DNA of 64,000 nucleotides from Rhizobium sp. (GTDB lineage Bacteria; Pseudomonadota; Alphaproteobacteria; Rhizobiales; Rhizobiaceae): positions 512,892-576,891 of the forward strand of contig PEKW01000005.1 of assembly GCA_002796995.1 (NCBI GenBank). Reading direction: 5' to 3'. The position numbers were made by a program, and so were the translations under genes. Shown here in pieces: positions 1,029 to 15,640 of the stretch. Every line of letters begins with the position of its first letter. Position 1 is the stretch's first letter. The notes under the pieces are model-generated. The model worked only from the letters and a program-made list of their open reading frames with translations. It was not told the DNA's origin and ran no database searches.

Positions 1029-1034
1029 GCGGAC

Positions 1035-1412: not shown

Positions 1413-1464
1413 CGTCATCTCCTCGTTGCTCTTCAATTTTCTTGGGTTGCCGCCGCGGCCAGCC

Positions 1465-1872: not shown

Positions 1873-1955
1873 CAGGGCGTATGGCTTCTGTCTGATTGAT
1901 CGTGGTCCTCTTGTTGCGTTGTTTCCGACTGCCGATCGGCAGCTACACCGACTGA

Positions 1956-1983
1956 TACGGCGCGCCGGCGAGCCTCCTACGCG
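1956..1983 (-). promoter_or_regulatory. Putative ECF promoter CGCGTAGGAG-N14-CGTA driving the leftward operon
   Basis: Same motif and spacing as at 2056..2083 on the opposite strand; CGTAGG-N16-CGTA fits ECF -35/-10 geometry. Confidence 0.65.
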
Positions 1984-2055
1984 GTCGTCGGTCGATTTTC
2001 GCAGGCCGTGTGTGCAGCGCTGATCGGAGGCCATCGGACAAAAAAGGAGAGACCA

Positions 2056-2083
2056 CGCGTAGGAGCCGCGGTTCGCGCGCGTA
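2056..2083 (+). promoter_or_regulatory. Putative ECF promoter CGCGTAGGAG-N14-CGTA driving the rightward EF-hand/BA14K genes
   Basis: cgcgtaggag ccgcggttcgcgcg cgta, ending 46 nt before the ATG at 2130. Confidence 0.65.
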
Positions 2084-2129
2084 GAAGACGGCATTGACAC
2101 CAAACTCAGCCGTCGAAGGGGAGAAGAAA

Positions 2130-2555
2130 ATGAATGTGAAACTGCTTGCCGGCGTGATGCTTGTCGTGGCGACCGGAAGCGCCTGTGCGGCCGACGGACA
2201 GAAGGCCCGCAAGGCCTTTCGCCAGATGGATCTCAACGGCGACCGCGCGCTTCAGTTCACCGAGTTGCAGGCGGCGCGCGCCAACCTGTTCGATCGCCTG
2301 GACGCAAATCGCGATGGCGTACTCGACGAGGGTGAGGCGAAGGCCGCCCTGCAGCGCGTGAGAGAAGGCGGCAGGCTCCAGATGGCGACGGCGGAAGGCC
2401 TGGATACGCAGGCCCGGCGCATGGACGCCAACGGCGACGGCCGGGTTGCACGGGCCGAGTTCGCCCAGTTCATTCCCGATCGCCTTCTGCGCGCCGACAC
2501 GAATGGCGACCGCACTCTCTCCCTCCCGGAGCTCAAGGCTTTGCGTCAGCGCTAG
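2130..2555 (+). CDS. Secreted EF-hand calcium-binding protein
   Basis: Signal peptide MNVKLLAGVMLVVATGSACA; loops DLNGDRALQFTE, DANRDGVLDEGE, DANGDGRVARAE, DTNGDRTLSLPE. Confidence 0.88.
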   Translation: MNVKLLAGVMLVVATGSACAADGQKARKAFRQMDLNGDRALQFTELQAARANLFDRLDANRDGVLDEGEAKAALQRVREGGRLQMATAEGLDTQARRMDANGDGRVARAEFAQFIPDRLLRADTNGDRTLSLPELKALRQR

Positions 2556-2593
2556 GCACCGTCTCCACTCTCAACCATAGGACACCAGATCCC

Positions 2594-3013
2594 ATGAAGA
2601 AGATTGCATCCTTCTGCGCCGCAGCCATCCTGCTTGTGGCCGCTTCCGTCCCTGCTTCCGCCACTTCGGTTCGACGGCCGCCGGTGAGCGTGAACACGGA
2701 CATCGTCCAGGAAGTCAGCCACCGCCACGGCGTGGTCGTCGTTCGCGGCGTCCACTATTACAACGGCTTCCGCGGCGTCGTCGTGGCGCGGCCAGGCTAC
2801 CGCTATTACCGCGGTTTCTGGTTTCCCCCCGCAGCCTTTGCCGCCGGCGTGATCGTCGACAGGACCCTGGCCCATCCGGTACCGGCCGCCAGGCGGCTAA
2901 CGGCCGCGCATATCGATTGGTGCTATGCCCATTATCGGTCCTACCGCGCCTACGACAACAGTTTCCAACCCTATGCGGGCCCGCGCGAACAGTGCTGGTC
3001 GCCCTACAACTGA
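2594..3013 (+). CDS. BA14K family secreted protein
   Basis: C-terminal HIDWCYAHYRSYRAYDNSFQPYAGPREQC matches the BA14K motif; signal peptide present. Confidence 0.92.
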   Translation: MKKIASFCAAAILLVAASVPASATSVRRPPVSVNTDIVQEVSHRHGVVVVRGVHYYNGFRGVVVARPGYRYYRGFWFPPAAFAAGVIVDRTLAHPVPAARRLTAAHIDWCYAHYRSYRAYDNSFQPYAGPREQCWSPYN

Positions 3014-3216
3014 ACGCCGCTGTCCGGTCCTAGAGGTGCGCACCCAGACATGTGAACGGCGCGACGGCAAGTGAGCCGTCGCTCCGACAATCGGTGTCGA
3101 ATGGCCTGCCCGGAAGCCGAAATCATGCCCCTGCGTGAGCAGAACTCCTGCTCATCTCCAGGCATCCATCATGTGGCGACGGCCAAGTCTCATCGAACGC
3201 CCCAAGGGCCTTCGCG

Positions 3217-4686
3217 CTACTTGCCTGTCACCACCGCCTCGGCCTCGATCTCGACTTCGTAGTCGCCGATCAGGGCGCCGGCTTGGATCAGGGTGTTGGC
3301 CGGCAGGATCTCGGAGAAGAAGCGGCCGTGAGCGCGGGACACGGGTTCCCATTGCGCGGCATCCTTGAGGTAGATGCGGGTGCGCACCACGTCCTCCATG
3401 CTCCCGCCGAGCGCCGCGATCGAGGCGGCGATCTTGTCGAGGATATAGGTGGTCTGTGCCCCTGGATCGCCGGGCGCGACGCAGCGGTCGCTGCCATGGG
3501 TCGCCGTGGTCCCCGAGACGAGGATTCGCTCGCCCACCCGCACCGCCCGGCTGTAACCCGCCAGCGGCTCCCAGATGCTGCCGGACGAGACCCGCATGCG
3601 GTCTTCCCTGCCCGGCACGGCCGCGGCCGTATAGACGGACGGGATCGCCGTCAGGTGATGGCTGAGATCGCCGGAGGCGGTGAGGAAGGGCGGCTTGCGG
3701 TACTCGTCGCCGCAATCGCCGGGAATGGGGCTTGAGGCGGCAAAGGCATTGCCGAGCAGCGTCTTGTCCTCCTCGTCCAACCGGAAGGTGAAGACCTTCA
3801 GGTTGTCGTCCCGATGCTCGTTTTCACCCAGCCGCGCGCCGATGATCGTAGCGGCGACGGCCTGATGTTCGAGGACCCAGCGGCTGGCGACATTGGAGAC
3901 CGAGACGCCGTGCTTACGGGCGATTTCGGCAGCGGCCGCGAGGATGCCCTGATAGACGGCCCAGCCGCCGGCCGCGTCGATGAAGCGCTTGTACTTGGAC
4001 CGGCTCCAGTCCGGGATCGTTTCCGGCTCCGCCTTGCCGAGCCATTTTTCCGAAAGAAAGCCGCCGCACAGCGTACCGTAGGCGAGAAGCTTTACGCCCT
4101 TGTTCTGGCAAAGGGCGGAGAGATCGCCCGCCGCGCGCCGGTCGATCAGGGAGAAAGACACCTGGTTGCTGGCGATCTCGATGCCGTCGGCAAGCGCCAG
4201 ACCCAGATGGGCAGCGTCGAAATTGGTGAGGCCGAGCGCGCCGATCAGACCCTCCTCCTTCATCGCCTGCATCTCGTGCAGGGCGTCCAGCCAGGCCGGG
4301 TGCTCGAAGGTCCACCAGTGGAACTGCAACAGATCGACCTTTTCGACGCCGAGCCGGACCAGCCGCTCCTCGACGCCACGCCGCACCACATCGCGGGTCA
4401 TCGGACCGGGCTCGGGGCACCATTTGGTGAAGGCGACGGGCCGTTCGGATCCGGCGGAGTAGCGCCTTAGCAGGTGGCCGGTGATGATCTCCGCAGAGCC
4501 ATAGTGGTCGGCCATGTCGAACGTATCGAAACCGGCCTTGGCATAAGCCTGCAGCGCGTCGGCCCCCTGCTCCGGATCGATCGTGCGGCCGTCCTTCTCG
4601 ATGTCGGCGACCTGCCACAGGCCGCAGACGAGCCGGCTGATCGACAGGCCCGGTGCAAGGGCGATGCGTTCGGGAAACTGGGGCAT
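3217..4686 (-). CDS. Aldo/keto reductase fused to a C-terminal Rid (YjgF/YER057c/UK114) domain
   Basis: AKR motifs GLWQ, FDMADHYG, TKW, DLLQFHWW, NQVSFSLIDRR; C-terminal SSGSIWEPLAGYSRAVRVG...PANT...VEIEAEA Rid domain. Confidence 0.9.
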   Translation of the reverse strand: MPQFPERIALAPGLSISRLVCGLWQVADIEKDGRTIDPEQGADALQAYAKAGFDTFDMADHYGSAEIITGHLLRRYSAGSERPVAFTKWCPEPGPMTRDVVRRGVEERLVRLGVEKVDLLQFHWWTFEHPAWLDALHEMQAMKEEGLIGALGLTNFDAAHLGLALADGIEIASNQVSFSLIDRRAAGDLSALCQNKGVKLLAYGTLCGGFLSEKWLGKAEPETIPDWSRSKYKRFIDAAGGWAVYQGILAAAAEIARKHGVSVSNVASRWVLEHQAVAATIIGARLGENEHRDDNLKVFTFRLDEEDKTLLGNAFAASSPIPGDCGDEYRKPPFLTASGDLSHHLTAIPSVYTAAAVPGREDRMRVSSGSIWEPLAGYSRAVRVGERILVSGTTATHGSDRCVAPGDPGAQTTYILDKIAASIAALGGSMEDVVRTRIYLKDAAQWEPVSRAHGRFFSEILPANTLIQAGALIGDYEVEIEAEAVVTGK

Positions 4687-4691
4687 GGAGA

Positions 4692-5660
4692 TCACTCCTT
4701 GGGTCGTTGTTGTGCGTCGAGCCGGCGCGAAAGCGGGCTCTTCTCGCCGAACAGGCCGCGAGGACGCAGCAGAAGCATGAGGCAGAGACCGACGCCGATG
4801 GCGACGATCTGCAAGGCGGCGGCGCGGGCCTGTTCTTCCGGCGGTACGGAGGCCGAGACGGCGGCGCCCGTCAGCGCCCAGAGCCCCCACACGAGAATGG
4901 CACCGGCAATGGCGCCGCGGTTGTTGCCTGAGCCGCCGACGATCAGCATGGCCCAGACCTGAAAGGTCAGGATCGGCATGTAGTTGTCCGGCGCGATGAA
5001 GCCGATGAAATGCGCCTGGGCGGCACCGGCAAGCCCCATGACGGCGCCGCCGACGGTGAACGCCTGCAGGCGAAAGCGGATGGGCCGCTTGCCGAGCGCC
5101 TGAGCCGCCGCCTCATCCTCGCGGATCGCCCGCAAGACGCGGCCCCACGGGCTTCGCGACAGATGCTGCAGACCGAGATAGAGCACAAGGACGATCACGG
5201 CCATGAGTCCGCAATTGGCGAGGCTGAACAGCAGCGCATCCCCCTGCAGTCCGGCGAAGGGCCGCGGGATGAAGCCGATGCCGAAGGCGCCGCCGGTCAG
5301 CGGCTGCAGGTTGAGCATGCAGAGCTGGACGGTGACCGCGACCCCGAAGGTGGCGATGGCAAGATAGTCGGCCCTGAGGCGGATGGTGAGCGCCCCCACG
5401 CCCCACGAGAGCGCGCCCGAGACGATGGCGGCGCCCAGCCAGCCGACGGCGATCGGCATGTCGAAACCGCCGAAACGGTCGGCGGTATCCGGCGTGGTGA
5501 GAATGGCCGAGGTGTAGGCGCCCACGGCGACAAAGGCCGCGATACCGACATTGAACAGCCCCGTCATGCCCCATTGCACGTTCAGTCCCAGGCTGATGAT
5601 CGCATAGGTCAGCGCCATGGAGAGGAAAAAGGCGCCGTAGGCAACGAGATCGAGGGTCAT
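4692..5660 (-). CDS. HAAT (LivM-like) ABC transporter permease
   Basis: GLNVQWGMTGLFNVGIAAF; SPWGRVLRAIREDEAAAQALG; multiple TM segments. Confidence 0.92.
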   Translation of the reverse strand: MTLDLVAYGAFFLSMALTYAIISLGLNVQWGMTGLFNVGIAAFVAVGAYTSAILTTPDTADRFGGFDMPIAVGWLGAAIVSGALSWGVGALTIRLRADYLAIATFGVAVTVQLCMLNLQPLTGGAFGIGFIPRPFAGLQGDALLFSLANCGLMAVIVLVLYLGLQHLSRSPWGRVLRAIREDEAAAQALGKRPIRFRLQAFTVGGAVMGLAGAAQAHFIGFIAPDNYMPILTFQVWAMLIVGGSGNNRGAIAGAILVWGLWALTGAAVSASVPPEEQARAAALQIVAIGVGLCLMLLLRPRGLFGEKSPLSRRLDAQQRPKE

Positions 5661-6568
5661 TGCGCTTTTCCAAACAGGCCGCGGGGGCGAACGAGAAGGA
5701 CGGCGATCAGAATGGCGAAGGACACCGCCGCCCGCCATTCCGCCCCGACGATCTGTACCGCGAGGGCTTCGCAAAGCCCGATGATGAGTCCGGCGATCAT
5801 GGCGCCCGGAACCGAACCGATGCCGCCGAGGATGGCGGCGGCAAAGAGGGGCAACAGAAGGTCGTGGCCGAGATAGGGACGGATCTGGATGATGAGGCCG
5901 CTCATGATCCCAGCCACGCAGGCGAGCGCCGCCCCCAGGAACCAGACGGTGCGGATGACGCGGCGCACGTCGATGCCGGCAATGCCGGCTAGAGCGGGAT
6001 TTTCGCTGACGGCGCGCATGGCCCGGCCGATATCGGTCCGGGTCATCACGAGATGCACGGCGATGACAGAGACCAGCGCCACGGCCAGCATGGCCAACTG
6101 GTCCGGCGTGGCGCGCAGGCCGCCGCCGAGCTTCATGGCGATCTGCAGCGCCTGAGTGAAATAGGCAGGCTTCGAGGTGAACAGGAACTCCAGCAGGCTA
6201 CGCAGCGCGAGCGAAGCGCCGAAGCTCGCCATGACCATGATGATGATGGCGCTGCCGCGTCTCCGGAAGCTGGAAAACAGCACCGCATCGACGGCAAGCG
6301 CCAGAAGTCCCGTCATTATGATAGCCAGCACGGCGGCGATGGGCAGAGACCAGCCGAAGGAGAACGGACCGAGCGGCGTGGTGAAGCCCGCGCCCAGCAC
6401 GCCGAGCGCACTGCTGATGCCGAGCGCCAGATAGGCGCCCCAGGACAGAAACTCGCCATGGGCGAAATTGGAGAAGCGCAGGATCGAATAGGTCAGCGTG
6501 ACGCCGATGGCGCCAAGTCCGATGATCGCTCCGGCGATCAGCCCGTCCATCAGGAATTGCGGATTCAT
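5657..6568 (-). CDS. HAAT (LivH-like) ABC transporter permease
   Basis: GVTLTYSILRFSNFAHGE; RTDIGRAMRAVSENPALA; AAILGGIGS. Confidence 0.92.
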   Translation of the reverse strand: MNPQFLMDGLIAGAIIGLGAIGVTLTYSILRFSNFAHGEFLSWGAYLALGISSALGVLGAGFTTPLGPFSFGWSLPIAAVLAIIMTGLLALAVDAVLFSSFRRRGSAIIIMVMASFGASLALRSLLEFLFTSKPAYFTQALQIAMKLGGGLRATPDQLAMLAVALVSVIAVHLVMTRTDIGRAMRAVSENPALAGIAGIDVRRVIRTVWFLGAALACVAGIMSGLIIQIRPYLGHDLLLPLFAAAILGGIGSVPGAMIAGLIIGLCEALAVQIVGAEWRAAVSFAILIAVLLVRPRGLFGKAQ

Positions 6569-7311
6569 TGGGCCAACTCGCCGGATGTATGCCGGGCCGA
6601 ACCGAGATAGATCTTGCCGATCAGCGGATCGTCGGCGAGATCGGCGGGCCTGCCCTCGTGGCGGATCTTTCCCTCCGCCAGGATGACGGCCCGATCGGCG
6701 ATCGCCATCGCCGCCTTCACATTCTGTTCGACCAGGACGATGGTCACGCCATCGCCGTTGATCCGCTTCAGCATGGCAAACACCTCTCCGACGATCTTCG
6801 GAGAAAGCCCGGCGGAGGGTTCGTCGAGGATCAGCACAGGCGGATCGAGCGCCAGCGCCCGCGCGACGGCCAGCATCTGCCGCTGCCCTCCCGAAAGGGA
6901 GCCGGCCGATCGCGTCGGCTTCACGGCAAGATCCGGAAAGCGCTGGAACAGCGCCGCGATCTTGGCGGCGCGCTCGGCCTTGGGCAGAAGCGCGACGGCG
7001 ATCTGCAGGTTCTCCAGAATGCTCATGCTGGCGAAGACGTTTTCGGTCTGCGGCACGAAGGCCAGACCTTCCGCCAGCTTGCGGTGCGGCGCGACCCTGG
7101 TGATGTCGCGCCCGTCGAGATGGATCGTGCCGGAATGGACCGGCACCATGCCGGCAATCGCCTTGACGAAGGTGGACTTGCCGGCGCCGTTCGGCCCGAG
7201 GAGAATGACCAGCTCCCCCTTGCCCACGGAGAAATCCACGCCGCGAACGATCGGCAGGTCGGGCTCGTAGCCGGCCACCAGCGATGTCGTCGAAAGCACG
7301 GGACCGGTCAC
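6565..7311 (-). CDS. ABC ATP-binding protein (LivF-like)
   Basis: Walker A GPNGAGKS, signature LSGGQ, Walker B LILDEP. Confidence 0.93.
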   Translation of the reverse strand: MTGPVLSTTSLVAGYEPDLPIVRGVDFSVGKGELVILLGPNGAGKSTFVKAIAGMVPVHSGTIHLDGRDITRVAPHRKLAEGLAFVPQTENVFASMSILENLQIAVALLPKAERAAKIAALFQRFPDLAVKPTRSAGSLSGGQRQMLAVARALALDPPVLILDEPSAGLSPKIVGEVFAMLKRINGDGVTIVLVEQNVKAAMAIADRAVILAEGKIRHEGRPADLADDPLIGKIYLGSARHTSGELAQ

Positions 7312-8120
7312 ACGCCGCCTCCCAGATAGGCTTCTATCACCGCGGGATTGGAAGCGACCTCCGCAGGCGTGCCCTGCGCCAGCGGCCTGCCGAGCGCCAT
7401 GGCGACGACGCGCGAGCAGAGCCGCGAGACCATGTCCATGTTGTGCTCGATCAGCAGGATGGACTTTCCCTGCGCATTGAGTGCCACGACCCGTTCGATG
7501 ATCACCTCAAGCAGAGCCGGGTTCACGCCGGCTGCCGGTTCATCGAGCAGGATCACCTGCGGATCGGCCATCAGCACGCGCGCCAGTTCCAGAAGCTTGC
7601 GCTGGCCGCCCGAAAGCACGCGCGCCGGCTTGTGGGCAAGCCGCGACAGCGTGACGAACTCCAGAAGGCCAAGCGCCTTTTCCAGCGCCGCCTTCTCTTC
7701 GCGGCGTACGATGCCTGGCATAAGGAAATTGGCAAACAGCCGCTCGCCATGCTGTTTCTGGGCGCCGACCAGCAGGTTCTCGAGCACGCTCATCTCGGAA
7801 AACGGTCGCGGGATCTGGAAGGTACGGGCCACGCCGTGGGCAATGCGCCGTTCGGGCGGCTCGCCGGACACTTCGCGGCCGCCGATCCATATCTCGCCCG
7901 AACTGGGCCTGAGGCTGCCGGCCAGCAGATTGAACATGGTGGTCTTGCCGGCACCGTTCGGGCCGATCAGTCCCACCATTTCGCCTTGGGCCACTGCCAG
8001 CGACATGTCGGAGACGACCGTCAGGCCATCGAACCGCTTCGTCAGGTGCCGTGCCTCGATGGCAGCCGGCGCTGCGGTCCTCATGACCGGCGCGGGCGGA
8101 TGGAGGGTTTCGGCATGCAT
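7308..8120 (-). CDS. ABC ATP-binding protein (LivG-like; start approximate)
   Basis: GPNGAGKT, LSGGQRK, ILLDEPAAGVNP, VIEAYLG. Confidence 0.93.
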   Translation of the reverse strand: MHAETLHPPAPVMRTAAPAAIEARHLTKRFDGLTVVSDMSLAVAQGEMVGLIGPNGAGKTTMFNLLAGSLRPSSGEIWIGGREVSGEPPERRIAHGVARTFQIPRPFSEMSVLENLLVGAQKQHGERLFANFLMPGIVRREEKAALEKALGLLEFVTLSRLAHKPARVLSGGQRKLLELARVLMADPQVILLDEPAAGVNPALLEVIIERVVALNAQGKSILLIEHNMDMVSRLCSRVVAMALGRPLAQGTPAEVASNPAVIEAYLGGGV

Positions 8121-8152
8121 CGTCAAAAAGGGGCCTTGATCTGATCGGTGAT

Positions 8153-8164
8153 GTTTGATCAAAC
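8153..8164. promoter_or_regulatory. Palindrome GTTTGATCAAAC, candidate GntR operator
   Basis: Perfect 12-bp palindrome in the divergent spacer between the LivG-like gene and gntR. Confidence 0.5.
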
Positions 8165-8220
8165 TTTACCGCAGAACCAAAATCAACCGATATTTGCTCA
8201 AAGGCGCACCAGTGGCAGGA

Positions 8221-8934
8221 ATGACGGAACCAGTCGGTCCGACGGATGACCTCCTCACCCCCGTCGGGCGCGAGACATTGCAGGACCGTGTCTACGACCA
8301 GCTGCGCCGGACATTGATCAATGGCGGCTTTGCCGCGGGCGACATGCTGCGCATCGTCGATCTGGCGGACCGGCTGAAGACCAGCACCATGCCGGTGCGC
8401 GAGGCGCTGGGCCGGCTCGTCTCCGAACAGGCGCTTGAGGCCCTCCCCAACCGCACCGTTCGGGTGCCCCTGATCACGCGGGAACGGCTCGACGATCTGG
8501 AGCGCGCCCGTATCCTGATCGAAGGCCGCCTGGTGGCGCTGGCCTGCAAGCGGCTGACGGCCGACGATCTGGAAGGTCTGAAACAGCTCAACCGCGACTG
8601 CGAGGCCGCCTTTGCAAGGCACGGCCAGGACATCGGCCCGGTGACCTCGGAAATCAACCAGCGCTTCCATTTCCAGATCTACCGGGCCGCGGGCTCCCAG
8701 GTGCTGATCCCCATGGTGGAAAGCCTGTGGCTGCAGTCCGGTCCGGTGGTGCGCCAGGCCGCCCATATTCACGACGAACAGGGTGGACTTGCCGCAACCA
8801 ACCACCACTGGACGATGGTGGCAGCGCTCGAGGCCGGAGACGAGCCGGCCGCCGTCCAGGCGCTCGCCAACGACATCGGCCGGTCCTTCGACCTGGTGCG
8901 CGGCCGTCTCGACGCCGGCGAAGAGGCGGCATGA
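8221..8934 (+). CDS. GntR family (FCD domain) transcriptional regulator
   Basis: ETLQDRVYDQLR...STMPVREALGRL HTH; C-terminal NQRFHFQIY...H FCD motif. Confidence 0.92.
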   Translation: MTEPVGPTDDLLTPVGRETLQDRVYDQLRRTLINGGFAAGDMLRIVDLADRLKTSTMPVREALGRLVSEQALEALPNRTVRVPLITRERLDDLERARILIEGRLVALACKRLTADDLEGLKQLNRDCEAAFARHGQDIGPVTSEINQRFHFQIYRAAGSQVLIPMVESLWLQSGPVVRQAAHIHDEQGGLAATNHHWTMVAALEAGDEPAAVQALANDIGRSFDLVRGRLDAGEEAA

Positions 8935-8944
8935 GGGCAAAGCC

Positions 8945-9292
8945 ATGAGCCATACCGACGACATGTTCGAACTTTTCGACCTGCGGGTCGACGTGGTGAT
9001 ACCGGAGAATGGCGCCGTCTATTGCGGCGCCAAGCCCGGAGACTATTTCGAGCTGCGCGGCGAGATGCTGCATCTGCCGGCGGGCCAGGGAATATCGATC
9101 TATTCGCTCGCGTCCGTCCTGCCACTCTTGGCCGCCAAGCAGCGCCCCACCCATGCGTATGACTGGATGACGACGGACAGCGACATCGCCTGCCCCGATC
9201 CCAATTGCTCGACCCGGTTGAGGATCAGGCGGACCGGCCTTCGCCGCTTCAGCCATGCCGCAACGACGGCCGTGCCCCTTGAGGAAAAGTAG
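8945..9292 (+). CDS. TIGR04076-like small Cys-containing protein
   Basis: YCGAKPGDYFEL...IACPDPNC pattern recognised from this uncharacterised family. Confidence 0.75.
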   Translation: MSHTDDMFELFDLRVDVVIPENGAVYCGAKPGDYFELRGEMLHLPAGQGISIYSLASVLPLLAAKQRPTHAYDWMTTDSDIACPDPNCSTRLRIRRTGLRRFSHAATTAVPLEEK

Positions 9293-9297
9293 TGACC

Positions 9298-10344
9298 ATG
9301 CAGCGCATCACCATCGCCCCCGGTTATGAAATTTCCCGTGTCATTCGCGGCGGCTGGCAGCTGGCCGGCGGACATGGCGCCGTCGACGGCGAGACGGCGA
9401 TCGACGACATGGTGGCCTTTGCCGATGCCGGCATCACCACCTTCGACTGCGCCGACATCTATACCGGCGTCGAGGAACTGATCGGTCGCTTTCGCCTGCG
9501 CTACCGCGACCTGCGCGGACAGGCCGCCCTGGATCGCATCCGCGTGCACACCAAGTTCGTGCCGGACCTCGGCGTCCTGCCGACCATCGACAAGGCCTAT
9601 GTGGAAGGCGTCATCGACACCTCGCGCAGGCGTCTCAACCTGGAGCGCCTTGATCTCGTGCAGTTCCACTGGTGGGACTATGACATGCCCGCCTGGCTCG
9701 ACACGCTCGGCTGGCTGAACGAGTTGAAGGAGGACGGCCGGATCGACAAGATCAGCGGCACCAATTTCGACAGCGACCACGTGCTCGCGATCCTCAATGC
9801 CGGGATTCCGTTCACCTCGCTGCAGCTGCAATATTCGCTGCTCGATCAACGGCCGGAAAAGCGCATGGTCGATCTGGCCGCCCGACATGATTTCGCGCTC
9901 TTCTGCTACGGCACCGTGGCCGGCGGCTTTCTCTCCGATCGCTGGCTGGGCAAGCCTGAACCGGAGCATCCGCTCGAGAACCGCTCGCTCACCAAATACA
10001 AGCTGATCATCGACGATCTCGGCGGCTGGGATCTTTTCCAGGGACTGCTTTCGGCCCTGCGCCAGATCGCCGACCGGCACCAAACCGACATCGCCACGAT
10101 CGCCAGCGCCGCCATGCTGCGCCGGCCGGGCGTGTCTGCCGTCATCGTCGGGGCGCGCAACCGCGCTCACCTCGCCTCGAACCTGGCGATCGCCGACATC
10201 GTCCTGTCGGATGCAGATCTCGGCGAAATCGACGCCGCCCTGGCCGGGGCACGAGACCTCGAAGGAGACGTCTACACGCTCGAGCGCGACCGTACGGGGC
10301 GTCACGGCAGCATCATGAAATACAATCTCAACAAAGGGGAATGA
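9298..10344 (+). CDS. Aldo/keto reductase (QFHWW subtype)
   Basis: GGWQLAGGHG, FDCADIYTGVE, HTKF, DLVQFHWWDY, LQYSLLDQRP. Confidence 0.92.
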   Translation: MQRITIAPGYEISRVIRGGWQLAGGHGAVDGETAIDDMVAFADAGITTFDCADIYTGVEELIGRFRLRYRDLRGQAALDRIRVHTKFVPDLGVLPTIDKAYVEGVIDTSRRRLNLERLDLVQFHWWDYDMPAWLDTLGWLNELKEDGRIDKISGTNFDSDHVLAILNAGIPFTSLQLQYSLLDQRPEKRMVDLAARHDFALFCYGTVAGGFLSDRWLGKPEPEHPLENRSLTKYKLIIDDLGGWDLFQGLLSALRQIADRHQTDIATIASAAMLRRPGVSAVIVGARNRAHLASNLAIADIVLSDADLGEIDAALAGARDLEGDVYTLERDRTGRHGSIMKYNLNKGE

Positions 10345-10363
10345 AATGGAAAAGGGGAACAAC

Positions 10364-11629
10364 ATGAAACGACTGGTACTTGCCTCGACTATGCTTGCCG
10401 GGCTGTCGCTCGCCGCCTCACCGGCCCTGTCGCAGGCCTGCGACATCACCGTCGGCGTGGTGATGGAACTGACCGGCCCTGCCGGCGAATACGGCAAGGC
10501 GGGCGCGAAATCCGTCGAAATGGCCTTCCGCGACTTCAACGAGGCGGGCGGCGTCGGCGGCTGCAAGCTCGTCATGGACACGCGCGACAGCCAGAGCCAG
10601 GGCAATGTCGCGGTCGACCAAGCGACCCAGCTCGTCAACATCAAGAAGGTGCCGGTCATCATCGGCGGCATCATTTCGTCGGTATCGATCCCGATCCTCA
10701 CCTCGGTGACGGCGCCGGCCGGCGTGGTCCAGGTCTCGCCCGCATCCTCCTCGCCGACGCTGACCGCACTCGGGCGCGACGGCAAGACCAATGGGGTCTT
10801 CTTCCGCACCATCACCTCGGACGCGCTGCAGGGCACGGCAGCCGCCAAATACGCGCTCGACCAGGGCCTGAAGAAGATCGCCATCATTCACGTCAACAAC
10901 GACTTCGGCAACAATCTGATGGCCGAGTTCACCGCCGCCTACACCAAGCTCGGCGGCACGATCACCTCGACGACGCCCTATAACGAGAAGCAGGCGAGCT
11001 ATTCCTCCGAAGCCTCCGTGGCCATGGCCGGCGAACCGGATGCGCTCTACCTGATCTCCACACCGGTCGACGGCGCCACCATCGCCCGCGCGTGGATCTC
11101 CGGCGGCGGCGTGCAGAAATTTCTGCTGAATGACGGCATGAACTCCAAGGATTTCATCACCAGCGTCGGCCCCCAGTATCTGAACGAAGCCTATGGCACG
11201 TCGTCGGGCACCACGCCGACGGCCTCGACCGAATATTTCAACGCCAATTACGAACAGTTCTCGGGCGGGATCGCGCCGTCCGCTCCGGCCGCCGACCGGT
11301 CCTATGACGCCGGCGCCATCGTCGCCCTGGCGATCGCCAAGGCCGGCAGCGCCGACAAGGCCGCCATCAGGGCCGCCATCTCCGAGGTGACGGCGCCGGG
11401 CGGGACGCCGATCCATGCCGGAAAGGCGGAGTTCGAAAAGGCGTTGGCGCTGATGAAGGACGGCAAGCCGGTCAAGTATGAAGGCGTCATCGGCCCGGTC
11501 AGCTTCGACCAGTACGGCGACATCACCGGCCCCTTCCGCCTGTGGAAGATCACCGATGGCGAGGTGACCACGGTCGGCGAGATGCCGGCGGAAGACGTCT
11601 CCAAGATCAAGGAATCGCTCGCCAAATAA
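10364..11629 (+). CDS. HAAT-type ABC substrate-binding protein
   Basis: Signal peptide; ELTGPAGEYG; SPASSSPTLT; FFRTITSDALQG. Confidence 0.92.
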   Translation: MKRLVLASTMLAGLSLAASPALSQACDITVGVVMELTGPAGEYGKAGAKSVEMAFRDFNEAGGVGGCKLVMDTRDSQSQGNVAVDQATQLVNIKKVPVIIGGIISSVSIPILTSVTAPAGVVQVSPASSSPTLTALGRDGKTNGVFFRTITSDALQGTAAAKYALDQGLKKIAIIHVNNDFGNNLMAEFTAAYTKLGGTITSTTPYNEKQASYSSEASVAMAGEPDALYLISTPVDGATIARAWISGGGVQKFLLNDGMNSKDFITSVGPQYLNEAYGTSSGTTPTASTEYFNANYEQFSGGIAPSAPAADRSYDAGAIVALAIAKAGSADKAAIRAAISEVTAPGGTPIHAGKAEFEKALALMKDGKPVKYEGVIGPVSFDQYGDITGPFRLWKITDGEVTTVGEMPAEDVSKIKESLAK

Positions 11630-11648
11630 GCGGGTTTGCACAGACGAC

Positions 11649-11681
11649 AAAGCGGGCGGCCTGCAAAGGGCCGCCCGCTTT
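11649..11681 (+). terminator. Intrinsic terminator
   Basis: aaagcgggcggcc / ggccgcccgcttt stem after the substrate-binding protein gene. Confidence 0.8.
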
Positions 11682-11969
11682 CGTGCCGGGATCATCGTCA
11701 ATCGTCCGAAAGCCTGCGCTGATCCGGTCAGACAAGCTGAGTGTCGGGCGCGCCATGGATCGCCACGCCGAAGCGGCCCCGGTCGGGCAAAGCATCCGCC
11801 TCCCCTGCCGCTGCACCAGATCTTCGCGAAGCGAGCAACCGACCACAGCGTCTCGCGCCCGGCCAAATCACCGCCCGCGGGCGTTACGCAAGGCGATCCG
11901 GACCTTCGCAAGCACGAGGACGTCACCGACGCCCGTTCGCGCCGGCCGTCAGGATCGACAGAGCCGCAC

Positions 11970-12341
11970 TCAGGCTCCGACGGTCTCGCTCACATCATCC
12001 AGCAGGAAATACACCACGACGTACTTCGTCGAATACGGCCGGCCGCTCTCCGAAACGCTTTCCACGGTTCCACCGTCGGCCGGGTGCCATTGGCCATAGT
12101 GCGGATTGTTGACGATCAGCGTCACAGCCTTGCCCGAAAACTTCCCCTGAAGCCTATGACGCGCCTCGGCGAATGGCCAGATCCGCTCATAGTCCTCCTG
12201 GGTGAGGCGCACCTTCAGCGCCTTGCGGTGGATCGCCTCACCGGCCGATCCGTCTTCGCGCTCCGTCGCCGGACTATCAAGCGTCACTTCCTCCGCCTCA
12301 TCGAAAATGAAGCGGAATTCATCGGGCCACATGCGTCTCAT
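11970..12341 (-). CDS. Hypothetical protein (123 aa)
   Basis: Strong GGAGGAG RBS before ATG 12341; MRRMWPDEFRFIFDEAEEV...KYVVVYFLLDDV; 3' part of ORF 11970..12584. Confidence 0.75.
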   Translation of the reverse strand: MRRMWPDEFRFIFDEAEEVTLDSPATEREDGSAGEAIHRKALKVRLTQEDYERIWPFAEARHRLQGKFSGKAVTLIVNNPHYGQWHPADGGTVESVSESGRPYSTKYVVVYFLLDDVSETVGA

Positions 12342-12613
12342 CAAATTGCTCCTCCCGAGCGTTTCCCGCTGAAGTGTACCGCGTCCGCCGCCGGAAACAA
12401 CGCATGAATCCATCGCCTTGCCCCGACCCACCGGAAAATCGCGGCCGCAGGCTCGGTTGTGCGATGGCCCGTGCTCCCGGCACATCCGAGCCCTCCGTAG
12501 CATCAACGTCGGCTTTGAGTGCCGGAAAAGCGACGTGGCCCACGATATTCCCCACCTCATCGAGGCGGAGATCCGGTGAGACAAATCGAAGAAAAACGTC
12601 GGAAAATGGAAAT

Positions 12614-12628
12614 TGGTGGGCCCGGAGG
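12614..12628 (-). repeat. att-like copy of the last 15 nt of tRNA-Ile2 (CCTCCGGGCCCACCA)
   Basis: Exact match to 14556..14570. Confidence 0.9.
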
Positions 12629-12725
12629 CTACCGGAATGCCAGGAGTTCTGGGCTTTCGGGAGAGTTCGATGGCACGTCACCCCCATAAAGACCCCACAT
12701 TTCTCTCAACCCAAATCCGGTTAGT

Positions 12726-13346
12726 TCAACTACCCTCCTTGGGCGGAGTCGTGATTCTGTCGGACGCCATTGTTTCCATCCTTTTAGCGACCTGAACAGG
12801 TGGCTCTCCATGTCCGCGCCATGAGTAGTGGTTTCCCGCGCTGTCGAAGGCGATCCTGAAATTCGGATAGTCGTTCCCAATGCGACGCATGAGATCCGTG
12901 TAGGCTGCGATCGGCACAAGCCAGAGGTGGCTATCATTGCGATCGGATGTCACAAAGAACCCGCTGACCCGGAGATCGCCCTCAGCGTAAACGCACTCCG
13001 AAAACACCCTACTATGGACAATGATGTCCAGCAGGTAGCCTACACCGAGCGCGCAGGTCGAGGGCGCTTCCACATCGAACGCTTCCCAGAAATTATGTCG
13101 CTTCCACCAATCCAGCTTCTGCCCTTGGAGAAGTCCATACCTTTCCGCTCGCAGGCTGCGCCCCTCGACATCGCTTGATACCTTCTCGCATTCGATGAGT
13201 TTCCGCATCGCGAAAGCCGAGACGAACACCTTTCTCTCGATCAGCATGGAGCCGCGCTCCGTGGCCCGCGTCTTTGCCGCCCACCGCTCTATAAGATCGG
13301 CATCGTTGAGCAACTGGTCTTTCCAGGGTGCGCTTTCGGCGATCAC
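12726..13346 (-). CDS. Hypothetical protein (206 aa), islet cargo
   Basis: GTG start overlaps the upstream stop (GTGA); globular-looking sequence (ERKVFVSAFAMRKLIE...LLDIIVHS...FFVTSDR). Confidence 0.8.
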   Translation of the reverse strand: MIAESAPWKDQLLNDADLIERWAAKTRATERGSMLIERKVFVSAFAMRKLIECEKVSSDVEGRSLRAERYGLLQGQKLDWWKRHNFWEAFDVEAPSTCALGVGYLLDIIVHSRVFSECVYAEGDLRVSGFFVTSDRNDSHLWLVPIAAYTDLMRRIGNDYPNFRIAFDSAGNHYSWRGHGEPPVQVAKRMETMASDRITTPPKEGS

Positions 13347-13996
13347 ACCTTTCGACCTCGATGTTCGGCAATTTGATGAGGGAGGTCGTATACGATTTTC
13401 AGCAGCATACTTAGATACTCGACCACTGCCAAAGCATCAGCGGCTAAAGTCCCAGACGCGCCCGGCATCGGATGCGCATTGCTGTTTCCAATCTCCCTCA
13501 CCTCATGCGCCCAATCCACCATGATCGGCGGCAATATGCCCTTGCTACCGAGGTCTTTGATCTCCTTAAACAGGCTGTCGCCTTCAGCCTCCTGATAACG
13601 AAGGATCAACTGCACGGCGCTTCGTGCCATCAGTGCAGCGGCGTCGTAGTTTGACGCCTCAACGCTTCGTTTCGCTTGCAGCCAATATCGCCCAACATCG
13701 TCAGGCCAGTGCTCGGGCCATCTCGTCGTATTGCGAGGCCACGGAACTTGGTGGATTCCGACAAGGCCAGAATTTCCCATGCCCCAAAATACGGAAGTCA
13801 GATTACCGCACTGCTGACAGACCAAAACGTCATAATGTAACTCTTTCGACTTATCCGGCTTCGTCTTGGATACCCTGCTTTCAAAGCCAAACCGACCGAC
13901 TTCTCCGCAGAAGCCGCAGGTAACTTCATTAAGCGGCAGGTCGCCGTCGTAGCTTCGGTATCCCCTTCCTTCCCCTAGATCCCACCAACTCATCAC
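13343..13996 (-). CDS. Zn-ribbon plus DUF4145 (HEPN-like) domain protein
   Basis: CGFC...CQQC; DAAALMARSAVQLIL, SLFKEIKDL, WAHEVREIGNSNAH (RxxxNxxxH). Confidence 0.82.
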   Translation of the reverse strand: MMSWWDLGEGRGYRSYDGDLPLNEVTCGFCGEVGRFGFESRVSKTKPDKSKELHYDVLVCQQCGNLTSVFWGMGNSGLVGIHQVPWPRNTTRWPEHWPDDVGRYWLQAKRSVEASNYDAAALMARSAVQLILRYQEAEGDSLFKEIKDLGSKGILPPIMVDWAHEVREIGNSNAHPMPGASGTLAADALAVVEYLSMLLKIVYDLPHQIAEHRGRKV

Positions 13997-14398
13997 TATG
14001 CCCTCTAACGCCGGGACTCGTTTCGTTCCCGATTCATCGGCTAAGCATGTGTTATTTTACTGATGCATTCAACGTAACCGCGTTTCGGCGTCGTGATCAT
14101 TCATACGCCGCTCGGCCTCACGCTTCCGTTCTTCCAAAACGCTTTGCCATTCTTCATATGACATTCCAGAAAAAGCGCTTGGTCATTGAAGATCGCTCTC
14201 ACGTATCCAGGAATATTCTCCTGGAGCATTGGGGATTGGCATCAGCGCGTCGGTATAAGTTGAACGATCCGGACTTGCACCGGCAACGTTTGGACACGAA
14301 CCCGCAACCATCAGACTGCAATACATGCTTCCGACTTGGGCCCTTGGATCGCTGGACTCCAACGTTTAGGTATAAACGGGTTGAGTAATCGCCTGGAG

Positions 14399-14444
14399 CG
14401 TCACCCCCCGGCGTTACCCCCGCATAAGCCTCAAGGGGTAACGC
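14399..14444. repeat. Cluster of CGT(C/T)ACCCC motifs (two direct, one inverted); a further copy at 12676..12685
   Basis: cgtcaccccc 14399, cgttaccccc 14412, ggggtaacg 14435, cgtcaccccc 12676. Confidence 0.7.
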
Positions 14445-14555
14445 GGTACTCGAACGCGGGGGCATCCTGCGCCTTTGATACCCTCAAAACCTCTGGATTG
14501 AGGCATTTGTGGGTTGCTAAACCATTGATTTTACTATTCACCGCAAAAGAGCGGA

Positions 14556-14631
14556 TGGTGGGCCCGGAGGGACTCGAACCCCCAACCAAGCGGTTATGAG
14601 CCGCCGGCTCTAACCATTGAGCTACAGGCCC
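14556..14631 (-). tRNA. tRNA-Ile2, anticodon CAT (lysidine type)
   Basis: GGGCCTGTAGCTCAATGGTTAGAGCCGGCGGCTCATAACCGCTTGGTTGGGGGTTCGAGTCCCTCCGGGCCCACCA; 76-nt cloverleaf with encoded CCA. Ile2 rather than Met is inferred from its resemblance to alphaproteobacterial Ile2. Confidence 0.93.
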
Positions 14632-15527: not shown

Positions 15528-15593
15528 CGACGACGTGCTACCCGCCTGACATCTTTCGGGCGGGCAGACGCGCTTCCGGACATCGTCAAAAGC

Positions 15594-15621
15594 AAAAGGC
15601 CCGCCTTCCGGCGGGCCTTTC
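15594..15621. terminator. Bidirectional intrinsic terminator
   Basis: aaaggcccgcc-ttcc-ggcgggccttt between convergent genes. Confidence 0.8.
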
Positions 15622-15640
15622 TCGTTCGAACTGTGGACGA

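What the first reader, a model, noticed from the sequence alone, without database searches (positions are those of the whole stretch)
12614..14631. Miniature integrase-less islet in tRNA-Ile2 bounded by a 15-bp att duplication
Seen: the last 15 nt of the tRNA, including CCA, are repeated exactly 1,942 bp away. The enclosed DNA is visibly more AT-rich than its flanks and has only two clear genes and no integrase. Known: tyrosine integrases target tRNA 3' ends and leave such duplications. Inference: either a non-autonomous cassette mobilised in trans or the reduced relic of a larger island.
Basis: partly seen in the sequence, partly recalled or inferred. Interest (0 to 1): 0.72.

Follow-up and report, generated by a model that had tools for sequence, protein, structure and literature searches.

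The report
Integrase-less defence islet at tRNA-Ile2
A real 1.9-kb piece of foreign DNA sits at the end of a tRNA gene, carries a known type of anti-phage RNase gene plus an unknown conserved gene but no integrase, and belongs to a recurring family of such tiny islets whose means of moving is unknown.

Summary
The last 15 nt of a tRNA(CAU) gene (14556-14631, minus strand; tRNA-Ile2) recur exactly at 12614-12628. These are the only two copies in the 4.77-Mb genome. The 1,927 bp between them have 54% GC against 64% for the genome. They are absent from 40 relatives and form a clean insertion relative to a sister species.

The islet holds two translationally coupled genes and no recombinase. Gene A is a RAZR/PD-T7-4-type zinc-ribbon/DUF4145 HEPN RNase. 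Gene B is a 206-aa protein with a confident predicted fold and no match in any library searched.

Two new points:
- The distal repeat abuts the decayed 3' tail of a P4-type integrase. In the sister species that integrase is intact, abuts the tRNA and bounds a 12.9-kb island with the same core. This is a tandem array.
- The islet belongs to a family. About a dozen repeat-bounded units without an integrase all keep B beside the distal repeat. The upstream gene varies: RAZR-like, methyltransferase, others or none. Targets are tRNA-Ile2, tRNA-Gly, tRNA-Ser, tRNA-Gln and aroC.

My best reading (about 0.55) is a CIME-like, non-autonomous defence islet moved by a helper tyrosine integrase. A B-encoded new recombinase is not excluded (about 0.12).

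The parts
14556..14631 (-). tRNA-Ile2 gene (anticodon CAT), the integration target. Its 3' 15 nt (14556-14570) form the tRNA-side att core.
   Evidence: ARAGORN. Rfam tRNA, 67.5 bits. Best E. coli matches are annotated tRNA-Ile. The other two CAT tRNAs of the genome are initiator-like and elongator-like.
12614..12628 (.). Distal att core: an exact 15-nt direct repeat of the tRNA 3' end.
   Evidence: Only two copies exist in the genome. Chance expectation is given.
12629..14555 (.). Islet interior, 1,927 bp, low GC, absent from relatives.
   Evidence: GC 0.543 against 0.643 for the genome. No match in 40 relatives, 24 of them in the same genus. Clean insertion relative to G010.
13343..13996 (-). 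Gene A, 217 aa: Cys4 zinc ribbon plus a DUF4145 (divergent HEPN) RNase. It is a RAZR/PD-T7-4-family abortive-infection defence protein.
   Evidence: Pfam DUF4145, E=4.7e-15. PADLOC PD-T7-4, E=3.3e-11. phrog_1305, E=8.7e-21. PDB 9y9c (24 chains of a DUF4145 protein, the RAZR ring; my identification), E=2.9e-5, with CxxC...CxxC and the R-x7-H motif aligned. Function of RAZR is from PMC13017515.
12726..13346 (-). Gene B, 206 aa, function unknown. Its start overlaps the stop of A by 4 nt. It is the one gene shared by all related islets, always next to the distal repeat.
   Evidence: ORF. No hit in Pfam, PADLOC, NCBIfam, PHROGs or PDB sequences. AlphaFold2 pLDDT 89.4, pTM 0.84, and no Foldseek match in PDB or BFVD. 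Family of 1,443 clusters. Contexts.
13997..14555 (-). 559-nt non-coding leader, or tRNA-side arm.
   Evidence: No integrase remnant by tblastn. Window 14309 to 13997 is conserved with the Rhizobium sp. J15 islet.
14518..14530 (-). Perfect IHF-site consensus (WATCAANNNNTTR), 26 nt from the tRNA end and preceded by an A-tract.
   Evidence: It is the only perfect match in the 64-kb window. Perfect matches lie at +22 to +35 in seven of the ten related islets examined, including tRNA-Gln islets.
14539..14555 (-). Small hairpin directly after the tRNA 3' end (TCCGCTCTTTTGCGGTG).
   Evidence: Read from the sequence. Analogous hairpins occur in L048, L052 and L058.
14399..14443 (.). Three copies of GGGGT[A/G]ACG (14399 and 14412 on the minus strand, 14435 on the plus strand): candidate arm-type protein-binding sites on the tRNA-side arm.
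   Evidence: Four of the five copies of this motif in the 64-kb window lie inside the islet, near its ends.
12676..12684 (-). Fourth copy of GGGGT[A/G]ACG, 48 nt from the distal repeat.
   Evidence: It also appears as repeat D20.
14271..14309 (-). Two tandem T-arm-like elements (GGTTGCGGGTTCGTGTCC and ACGTTGCCGGTGCAAGTCC). The part of the leader conserved across the islet family starts here.
   Evidence: Their role is unexplained.
14069..14224 (-). Conserved near-palindrome CCAGGAGAATATTCCTGG (14207-14224), followed by a small conserved ORF or regulatory block (14069-14164; ...EERKREAER...) upstream of A.
   Evidence: Alignment with L046. tblastn of the peptide. Coordinates.
12502..12613 (+). 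Decayed 3' tail and spacer of a P4-type tyrosine integrase gene. It lies outside the islet and directly abuts the distal repeat.
   Evidence: 77% DNA identity to the tail of the intact 416-aa integrase ORF of G010, which abuts the tRNA there. tblastn finds only the tail.
11970..12416 (-). ORF-C, about 148 aa, unknown function, intermediate GC. It is probably part of the older decayed island.
   Evidence: GC 0.60, GC3 0.72. A homologue lies next to the same tRNA in G002, and another elsewhere in G016. No family hit.

Best explanation
The segment 12629-14555 is a miniature mobile islet without an integrase. It was inserted by site-specific recombination into the 3' end of tRNA-Ile2, duplicating a 15-nt core.

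It lies between the tRNA and an older integrase-bearing island. Only the integrase tail (12502-12613) and perhaps ORF-C survive of that island. The locus is therefore a tandem array.

The cargo is an abortive-infection gene of the RAZR/PD-T7-4 type. It is translationally coupled to a conserved gene B of unknown function.

The islet keeps what looks like a complete attP-type layout: the core, an IHF site 26 nt from the core, and short repeated motifs near both ends. It has no recombinase of its own. The most likely mechanism is that it is a non-autonomous, CIME-like hitchhiker, excised and integrated by a tyrosine integrase supplied by another island at or near the same tRNA. In this strain that helper is gone, so the islet is now probably fixed in place.

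Shown: the insertion, its limits, its gene content, the tandem array, and the family of related islets.
Inferred: the helper integrase, the role of the arm motifs, and the defence function of A and B.
For: **The repeat and the insertion**
- Exact 15-nt repeat, unique in the genome.
- Low GC and low GC3.
- Interior absent from 40 relatives.
- In G010 the integrase tail is joined directly to the tRNA with no islet.
- G016 has an empty site, with the core flank 57 bp from the tRNA.

**An integrase that uses this core exists in the genus**
- The 12.86-kb integrase island of G010 is bounded by the same core, 16 nt.
- Another integrase remnant sits behind its distal repeat, so tandem accretion recurs at this site.

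**The islet recurs as a unit**
- The same A-B islet lies at tRNA-Ile2 in Rhizobium sp. J15. DNA identity is 79% over 1,624 bp, against 69% for the adjacent host SIMPL gene. Its distal repeat matches 14 of 15 nt.
- A version with most of A deleted carries a 14/15 repeat.
- B-only islets of 0.85-1.2 kb also occur.
- Related islets sit at tRNA-Gly (22-nt exact repeat), tRNA-Ser (17 nt with one mismatch) and aroC (81 nt).
- None of about 12 repeat-bounded units holds an integrase.

**attP-like arms**
- IHF consensus at a conserved offset from the core.
- Four of the five window copies of GGGGT[A/G]ACG lie at the islet ends.
- GGTAnC motifs run at 5.8 per kb in the arms against about 0.9 per kb background. 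They are absent upstream of B homologues outside tRNA islets, except single copies in three of 19 loci.

**Cargo and definition**
- A is a RAZR homologue (PMC13017515).
- The CIME definition and tandem accretion are described in PMC5704250.
Against: - No helper integrase has been identified. The genome has no paralogue of the G010-type integrase. None of its seven PF00589 genes sits at this tRNA.
- The arms of the G010-type islands do not clearly resemble the islet's arms. That particular integrase may therefore not be the helper.
- No integrase-bearing parent island carrying B within the same pair of repeats was found. This is unexpected if the islets arise by decay of such islands.
- Hitchhiking at five different targets would need several helpers of different specificity.
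Confidence: 0.55

Rival explanations
1. The islet is a relic reduced in place. A larger integrase-bearing island inserted at tRNA-Ile2 and lost everything except A, B and the two att cores. It has never moved as a 1.9-kb unit.
For: Decay of islands is evident at this very locus: integrase tails in the window, in G010 and in G007. An internal deletion of gene A is seen in L076. In L109, B lies at the far end of a tandem array that includes an AlpA/VapE island.
Against: The same boundaries recur in different genera and at five different targets: a leader starting right after the tRNA, and B lying 65-220 nt before the distal repeat. That would need many parallel reductions to the same end state. 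No integrase remnant lies inside the islet. The islet is more conserved between genera (79%) than the neighbouring host gene (69%). In L109 an att copy separates B from the larger island.
Confidence: 0.2
2. The islet is autonomous. Gene B encodes a new kind of small site-specific recombinase or integration factor, and the upstream gene (here RAZR-like A) is swappable cargo.
For: B is the only gene common to all repeat-bounded units. It always sits next to the distal repeat and is always transcribed towards it. It occurs at tRNA-Ile2, tRNA-Gly, tRNA-Ser, tRNA-Gln and aroC. Minimal units hold B alone: 0.66 kb at aroC with an 81-nt repeat, 0.85 kb in L109 and 1.2 kb in L049. No integrase lies in any unit. 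B has a confident fold unlike anything in PDB or BFVD, and it has invariant polar residues (D15, E37, K39, R48, K55, H111, S112, D135, R154, D159).
Against: B resembles no known recombinase or nuclease in sequence or fold, and has no invariant tyrosine. The family is large (1,443 clusters). Many members sit without tRNAs or repeats, in conserved synteny in Actinomycetota and as ordinary accessory genes on plasmids. B is translationally coupled to defence-type partners, twice to DNA methyltransferases. That suggests an operon function rather than mobility. The arm motifs are absent upstream of B outside tRNA islets. There is one copy per genome here.
Confidence: 0.12
3. The islet was acquired by homologous recombination of flanking DNA, after conjugation, transduction or gene-transfer-agent delivery. 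The 15-nt repeat was inherited with the fragment and reflects no recombination event in this lineage.
For: The tRNA is 100% identical across the genera examined. The adjacent SIMPL gene is syntenic in many of them.
Against: The left flank differs between hosts: an integrase tail here, other DNA in L046, L049 and L076. There is therefore no shared left homology arm. Identity of the flanks between genera is only about 69%.
Confidence: 0.06
4. The 15-nt repeat is a chance match and the segment is ordinary host DNA.
For: None beyond the shortness of the repeat.
Against: The expected number of copies in the whole genome is 0.06. Composition is in the lowest 0.5% of windows. Relatives have empty sites. 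Homologous repeat-bounded islets exist elsewhere.
Confidence: 0.01

Closest known systems
CIMEs (cis-mobilizable elements) and tandem accretion of integrative elements, described for the ICESt1/ICESt3 family of Streptococcus thermophilus; reviewed in PMC5704250
   Same: Bounded by attL and attR at the 3' end of a target gene. No integration or transfer genes. Lies in tandem with an integrase-bearing element, here decayed, that uses the same core.
   Different: CIMEs are defined as decay products of ICEs or IMEs. Here no integrase-bearing parent with the same backbone was found. The tiny architecture recurs across genera and across five targets with one constant gene (B). Mobilisation has not been shown.
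P4-type tyrosine-integrase genomic islands at tRNA 3' ends, such as the 12.9-kb restriction-modification island of the sister species G010 at the same tRNA
   Same: Same target tRNA and same core (15 of 16 nt). Direct repeat of the tRNA 3' end. Low GC. Defence cargo.
   Different: No integrase and no AlpA/Xis gene. One-sixth of the size. Arm sequences are not clearly homologous.
RAZR (PD-T7-4), a single-gene abortive-infection system of E. coli (PMC13017515)
   Same: Gene A has the Cys4 zinc ribbon, the DUF4145 HEPN domain and the R-x7-H catalytic pair. It aligns to the protein of PDB entry 9y9c, which I take to be RAZR.
   Different: Identity is low (E=2.9e-5). Here the gene is translationally coupled to a second conserved gene, B, whereas RAZR works alone. 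No activity has been tested.
Non-autonomous hitchhiking units moved by a recombinase supplied in trans: integron gene cassettes, and IMEX elements that use host XerCD (from general knowledge)
   Same: A very small unit of one or two genes plus recombination sites, with no recombinase of its own.
   Different: Integron cassettes vary in their gene and share attC. Here one gene (B) is constant. The sites are tRNA or gene 3' ends with lambda-like arms that include an IHF site.
Variable defence hotspots flanked by conserved backbone genes in P2 prophages and P4-like satellites (from general knowledge; not checked in a paper here)
   Same: A slot directly upstream of a conserved gene is filled by different defence-type genes in different hosts: RAZR-like, methyltransferase, a phrog_6191 protein, an ImmA-like pair, or nothing.
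   Different: The whole element is only 0.7-3.2 kb. It lacks the integrase, primase and capsid-hijacking genes of satellites.

Membership tests
tRNA-integrated genomic island (tyrosine-integrase type) | Insert bounded by the tRNA gene and a direct repeat of its 3' end | tested here: met
   Exact 15-nt repeat at 12614-12628 and 14556-14570, unique in the genome.
tRNA-integrated genomic island (tyrosine-integrase type) | Empty site in related genomes | tested here: met
   G010: the left flank is joined to the tRNA without the islet. G016: the core flank lies 57 bp from the tRNA. Interior absent from 40 relatives.
tRNA-integrated genomic island (tyrosine-integrase type) | Integrase gene inside the element | tested here: not met
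   Only two ORFs, neither matching PF00589 or any recombinase family. tblastn with the G010 integrase finds nothing inside the islet.
tRNA-integrated genomic island (tyrosine-integrase type) | Composition differing from the host | tested here: met
   GC 0.543 against 0.643. GC3 0.58 and 0.68 against about 0.88.
CIME (cis-mobilizable element) | Retains attL and attR but lacks integration and transfer genes (definition in PMC5704250) | tested here: met
CIME (cis-mobilizable element) | Derived by decay of an ICE or IME | tested here: inconclusive
   No integrase-bearing relative with B inside the same pair of repeats among about 12 units examined. In L109 the larger island is separated from B by an att copy.
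CIME (cis-mobilizable element) | Tandem accretion with an element whose integrase uses the same att, allowing mobilisation | tested here: inconclusive
   The architecture is present: an integrase tail abuts the distal repeat, and the G010 island uses the same core. The integrase is decayed, its arms differ, and movement could not be tested.
RAZR / PD-T7-4 (gene A) | N-terminal Cys4 zinc ribbon | tested here: met
   CGFC...CQQC aligns with the CxxC...CxxC of PDB 9y9c. Domain description in PMC13017515.
RAZR / PD-T7-4 (gene A) | C-terminal DUF4145 HEPN domain with the catalytic Arg and His (R146 and H154 in RAZR) | tested here: met
   Pfam DUF4145, E=4.7e-15. PADLOC PD-T7-4, E=3.3e-11. 'REIGNSNAH' aligns with 'RIVGNQAVH'.
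RAZR / PD-T7-4 (gene A) | Acts as a stand-alone gene that gives phage defence by abortive infection | not testable with these tools
   Here A overlaps the start of B by 4 nt. Activity needs an experiment.
tRNA-Ile2 (lysidine-dependent, anticodon CAU) | CAT anticodon, but neither the initiator nor the elongator methionine tRNA | tested here: met
   Three CAT tRNAs in the genome. One has the C1xA72 initiator feature and one is elongator-like. The best E. coli matches of this one are annotated tRNA-Ile. The lysidine modification itself cannot be tested here.
Known recombinase families (tyrosine, serine, DDE, HUH) for gene B | Sequence or fold similarity to a catalytic domain | tested here: not met
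   No Pfam, NCBIfam, PHROG, PADLOC or PDB-sequence hit. No Foldseek hit with E<=0.001 in PDB or BFVD, despite pLDDT 89. No invariant tyrosine.
Type II restriction endonuclease (gene B) | Paired with a cognate DNA methyltransferase and having a nuclease fold | tested here: not met
   B homologues follow an N6_N4 methyltransferase in L048 and L074. In the window, however, the partner is a RAZR-like gene, many homologues stand alone, and no nuclease fold was detected.

The most novel reading that the evidence does not exclude
Gene B defines a new class of very small integrative elements of 0.7-3.2 kb. These insert at the 3' ends of tRNA-Ile2, tRNA-Gly, tRNA-Ser, tRNA-Gln and aroC. B itself would be a previously unrecognised site-specific recombinase or essential integration factor with a new fold. 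The slot upstream of B would carry swappable defence genes such as the RAZR homologue here.
Probability: 0.12. Interest if true: 0.9.

Novelty: new variant of a known kind. Interest (0 to 1): 0.62.

Why it matters
Integrase-less islets are usually dismissed as debris. Here the same tiny layout recurs in at least five alphaproteobacterial genera and at five target genes. Its elements, in order, are:
- the tRNA end;
- an IHF site;
- short repeats;
- an optional defence gene;
- the conserved gene B;
- a copy of the target's 3' end.

Two outcomes are possible. It may be an efficient hitchhiker on tRNA-specific integrases, which would be a cheap way to spread single defence genes such as RAZR. Or it may carry an unrecognised recombinase.

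Either way it offers:
- a testable model for how minimal defence cassettes move;
- a 1,443-cluster protein family with a confident, unmatched fold, tied to mobile DNA and worth characterising;
- a natural RAZR homologue coupled to a partner gene.

Tried and rejected
- **Third att copy.** I looked for one further left that would bound the older island. None was found with up to 4 errors in 11000-12613, nor at the junction with the core flank defined by G016.
- **The 24.6-kb block.** I asked whether all the DNA that separates the tRNA from the G016-type core flank is one island. It has host-like GC and ordinary regulatory and metabolic genes, with no mobile-element gene. I treat it as lineage-specific host DNA.
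- **Integrase remnants in the leader.** I searched the 559-nt leader with the G010 integrase. Nothing was found.
- **Shared arms with G010-type islands.** Only about 19 nt of weak similarity follow the core. I do not claim homology.
- **A fold or family for B.** There was no significant hit anywhere: Pfam, PADLOC, NCBIfam, PHROGs, PDB by sequence profile, Foldseek against PDB and BFVD.
- **The T-arm-like leader element as a target-matched guide.** The tRNA-Gly islets have a similar element at the same offset. However, the elements resemble each other about as much as they resemble their targets. This is left unexplained.
- **The arm repeats as operators for B.** They are absent upstream of B outside tRNA islets, bar single copies in three of 19 loci. 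I rejected this as the main reading.
- **DNA searches of plasmid and phage collections.** The islet gave no plasmid match and B gave no phage match. Weak B homologues on five plasmids are unannotated.
Full report
**1. The observation.** A 76-nt tRNA gene with anticodon CAT lies at 14556-14631 on the minus strand. Its last 15 nt, TGGTGGGCCCGGAGG in plus-strand letters, recur exactly at 12614-12628, which is 1,942 bp away start to start. The base after the repeat differs. The 15-mer occurs nowhere else in the 4.77-Mb genome. Base composition predicts 0.06 copies genome-wide and 7e-5 within 10 kb in the same orientation.

The enclosed 1,927 bp have GC 0.543 against 0.643 for the genome, the lowest 0.47% of equal-sized windows. 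GC3 of the two genes is 0.58 and 0.68, against about 0.88 for the flanking host genes.

The tRNA is Ile2. The genome has three CAT tRNAs, one with the C1xA72 initiator feature and one elongator-like. The best matches of this tRNA in complete E. coli genomes, 83% over all 76 nt, are annotated tRNA-Ile.

**2. It is an insertion.** The interior has no DNA match in 40 relatives, 24 of them in the same genus. The tRNA and the SIMPL gene next to it are syntenic in most of those.

In sister species G010, which is 87% identical across the tRNA and SIMPL gene, the DNA homologous to window 12502-12596 lies about 30 bp from the tRNA 3' end, with no islet between. Relative to G010, the window has gained exactly the islet plus one copy of the core.

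In the closest relative, G016 (89% identical), a core flank lies 57 bp from the tRNA. That flank corresponds to a stretch of the window's own contig lying 10 kb before the window start.

**3. Contents.**

- *Gene A* (13343-13996, minus strand, 217 aa) has a Cys4 zinc ribbon and a DUF4145 domain. Support:
  - Pfam E=4.7e-15 and PADLOC PD-T7-4 E=3.3e-11.
  - phrog_1305 E=8.7e-21.
  - It aligns to the 24-chain DUF4145 protein of PDB 9y9c (E=2.9e-5), with both CxxC pairs and the R-x7-H pair conserved.
  PD-T7-4 was renamed RAZR. It is a zinc-finger HEPN RNase that assembles on ring-shaped phage proteins and aborts infection (PMC13017515).
- *Gene B* (12726-13346, minus strand, 206 aa) starts 4 nt before A's stop.
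  - It has no hit in Pfam, PADLOC, NCBIfam, PHROGs or PDB sequences.
  - AlphaFold2 gives a confident model (pLDDT 89.4, pTM 0.84).
  - Foldseek finds nothing at E<=0.001 in PDB or BFVD.
  - A profile search finds 1,443 clusters of stand-alone proteins of about 170-210 aa.
- *The leader.* The 559 nt between A and the tRNA are non-coding and hold no integrase remnant.

**4. Just outside the islet.** Window 12502-12613 is the decayed 3' tail and spacer of a P4-type tyrosine integrase. In G010 the intact 416-aa integrase ORF ends at the tRNA. It belongs to an island with AlpA, XRE regulators, a PLD-type nuclease and a methyltransferase. That island is 12.86 kb and is bounded by a 16-nt repeat containing the window's 15-mer. 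Behind its distal repeat lies yet another integrase remnant, and G007 has an integrase tail next to its tRNA.

The tRNA-Ile2 3' end is therefore a hot spot in this genus, where islands pile up in tandem and decay. In the window the order is: tRNA, islet, 15-nt core, integrase tail, ORF-C. I found no further att copy to the left.

The own genome has no paralogue of that integrase. None of its seven PF00589 genes lies at this tRNA.

The 24.6 kb that separate the tRNA from the G016-type core flank are mostly host-like in GC and hold ordinary regulatory and metabolic genes. I do not count that block as part of the element.

**5. A family of islets.** Homologues of B were traced in genomes and metagenomes.

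| Locus | Target | Genes between target and distal repeat | Distal repeat |
|---|---|---|---|
| Window | tRNA-Ile2 | A, B | 15/15 exact |
| L046, Rhizobium sp. J15 | tRNA-Ile2 | A, B (79% DNA identity over 1,624 bp; host SIMPL gene 69%) | 14 of 15 nt, one deleted |
| L076, Xaviernesmea-like contig | tRNA-Ile2 | internally deleted A, B | 14/15 |
| L048, Xaviernesmea oryzae | tRNA-Ile2 | N6_N4 methyltransferase, B, then an IS | not seen (contig ends in the IS) |
| L047 | tRNA-Ile2 | phrog_6191 protein, B | none seen |
| L049, Mesorhizobium sp. KR2-14 | tRNA-Ile2 | B only, 1.2 kb | 10-13 nt |
| L109 | att copy behind an AlpA/VapE island | B only, 0.85 kb | degenerate |
| L074, L079 | tRNA-Gly(UCC) | methyltransferase, B | 22 nt exact |
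| L081 | tRNA-Ser(UGA) | ImmA-like pair, B; 3.2 kb | 17 nt, one mismatch |
| Bosea and Chelatococcus loci | tRNA-Gln | B, about 150-175 nt after the tRNA | none clear; 9 nt in L099 |
| L051, Micropepsales MAG | aroC 3' end | B only, in a 658-nt insertion | 81 nt, 86% identical |

In every repeat-bounded unit B is the last gene, 19-220 nt before the distal repeat (19 nt at aroC, 65-220 nt at the tRNAs), and is transcribed towards it. Where an upstream partner is present it usually overlaps B's start. No unit contains an integrase.

Other B homologues sit without tRNAs or repeats. These include conserved synteny in Actinomycetota, Brevundimonas, and five plasmids.

**6. The arms.** The islet's tRNA-side arm begins with a small hairpin. 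An A-tract and a perfect IHF consensus follow at 14518-14530. That is the only perfect match in the 64-kb window. Perfect matches lie at +22 to +35 from the tRNA end in seven of the ten related islets examined, including tRNA-Gln islets.

Four of the five window copies of GGGGT[A/G]ACG lie within about 50-160 nt of the islet's two ends. An earlier first-reader note saw the same motif. Across the islets, GGTAnC-type motifs reach 5.8 per kb in the arms against about 0.9 per kb in the background. They are missing upstream of B homologues outside tRNA islets, apart from single copies in three of 19 loci.

This layout of core, IHF site and short repeats is what attP arms of lambda-type tyrosine integrases look like (general knowledge). 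It argues that the islets are, or recently were, substrates of such an enzyme, and that the repeats are not simply B's operators.

Further in, the leader has two tandem T-arm-like elements (14271-14309), a near-palindrome (14207-14224) and a small conserved ORF or regulatory block (14069-14164). Their roles are unexplained.

**7. Mechanism.**

- *Most likely, about 0.55.* The islet is a non-autonomous, CIME-like element, with attL and attR kept and no integration genes (definition in PMC5704250). It carries a RAZR-type defence gene and is moved by a tyrosine integrase supplied by another island. The tandem position next to a decayed integrase that uses the same core is exactly the accretion layout in which such mobilisation is known. 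In this strain no helper remains, so the islet is probably immobile now.
- *Weak points.* The helper is unidentified. The G010-type arms do not match the islet's. No integrase-bearing parent with B was seen. Five targets would need several helpers.
- *Rivals.*
  - A relic reduced in place (0.2). This fits the local decay but not the recurrent identical boundaries.
  - B as a new recombinase (0.12). This fits B's constancy, position and the B-only units. It lacks any homology support and conflicts with the many non-mobile-looking family members and with B's operon coupling to defence genes.
  - Acquisition through flanking homology (0.06).
  - Chance (0.01).

**8. What A and B do.** A most likely acts as RAZR does, as a phage-triggered RNase (inferred from homology; the catalytic and zinc ligands are conserved). 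B is unknown. Its coupling to RAZR-like, methyltransferase and phage-family partners suggests a shared accessory or effector role in defence operons. That is inference only.

**9. Limits.** The survey of B contexts covers about 60 loci, not the whole family.

**10. Verdict.** The individual parts are known kinds: a tRNA att duplication, a CIME-like islet and a RAZR homologue. Two things are new and worth following up. One is the recurrent, integrase-less B-islet architecture across genera and targets. The other is the uncharacterised B family itself.

Noticed in passing
window 11970-12416 (-): ORF-C, about 148 aa, has no family hit and intermediate GC. A homologue sits directly next to the same tRNA in G002, in inverted orientation, and another lies elsewhere in G016. 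It may be a recurrent passenger of islands at this tRNA.
   Followed up: partly
own contig C30:502833-525504 (window 1-12613 plus 10 kb before the window): About 22.7 kb of host-like DNA separates the islet from the core flank that abuts the tRNA in G016. It holds an AcoR-like regulator, dehydrogenases, an ECF sigma unit and an ABC transporter cluster. It is absent from G010 and G016, and parts lie on other contigs in G002 and G007. No att copy marks its far end.
   Followed up: partly
G013 contig C22:15684-15698 and 480372-480386: Two exact copies of the 15-nt core lie on the same strand 465 kb apart, one of them at the tRNA. This could bound a very large integrated element at tRNA-Ile2.
   Followed up: no
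L051:4168-4906 (Micropepsales MAG): A B homologue is the only gene in a 658-nt insertion at the 3' end of aroC. The insertion is flanked by an 81-nt direct repeat (86% identical) that rebuilds the end of aroC. This is the smallest unit seen.
   Followed up: partly
window 14271-14309 (-); L046:6034-6081; L049:6714; L048:6058; L050:6589; L074 at +242 to +276 from its tRNA: A conserved element resembling the 5' stem and loop of a tRNA T-arm (GCGGGTTCGnnTCC), often in two tandem copies, lies about 125-300 nt inside the islets. In several islets a TCAAC-N5-GTTGA hairpin follows it. No explanation.
   Followed up: partly
L069:1680-1924 (G010) and L039:998-1162 (G007): More decayed integrase fragments lie next to att copies at this tRNA in other species of the genus. 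They indicate repeated insertion and decay.
   Followed up: partly
L099:3501-3725: A tRNA-Gln islet in which B is cut off after about 70 codons, exactly at a 9-nt copy of the tRNA 3' end. It looks like a deletion that ended at the att site.
   Followed up: no
L081:1151-3006 (-): The tRNA-Ser islet carries a 478-aa protein with an HExxH (ImmA/IrrE-like) motif, overlapping a 140-aa protein. This is a possible two-gene defence or toxin-antitoxin module.
   Followed up: no
window 15586-15629: A weak Rfam ctRNA_p42d match (25.5 bits, below threshold) coincides with a GC-rich hairpin after the SIMPL gene. It is most likely just a terminator.
   Followed up: no
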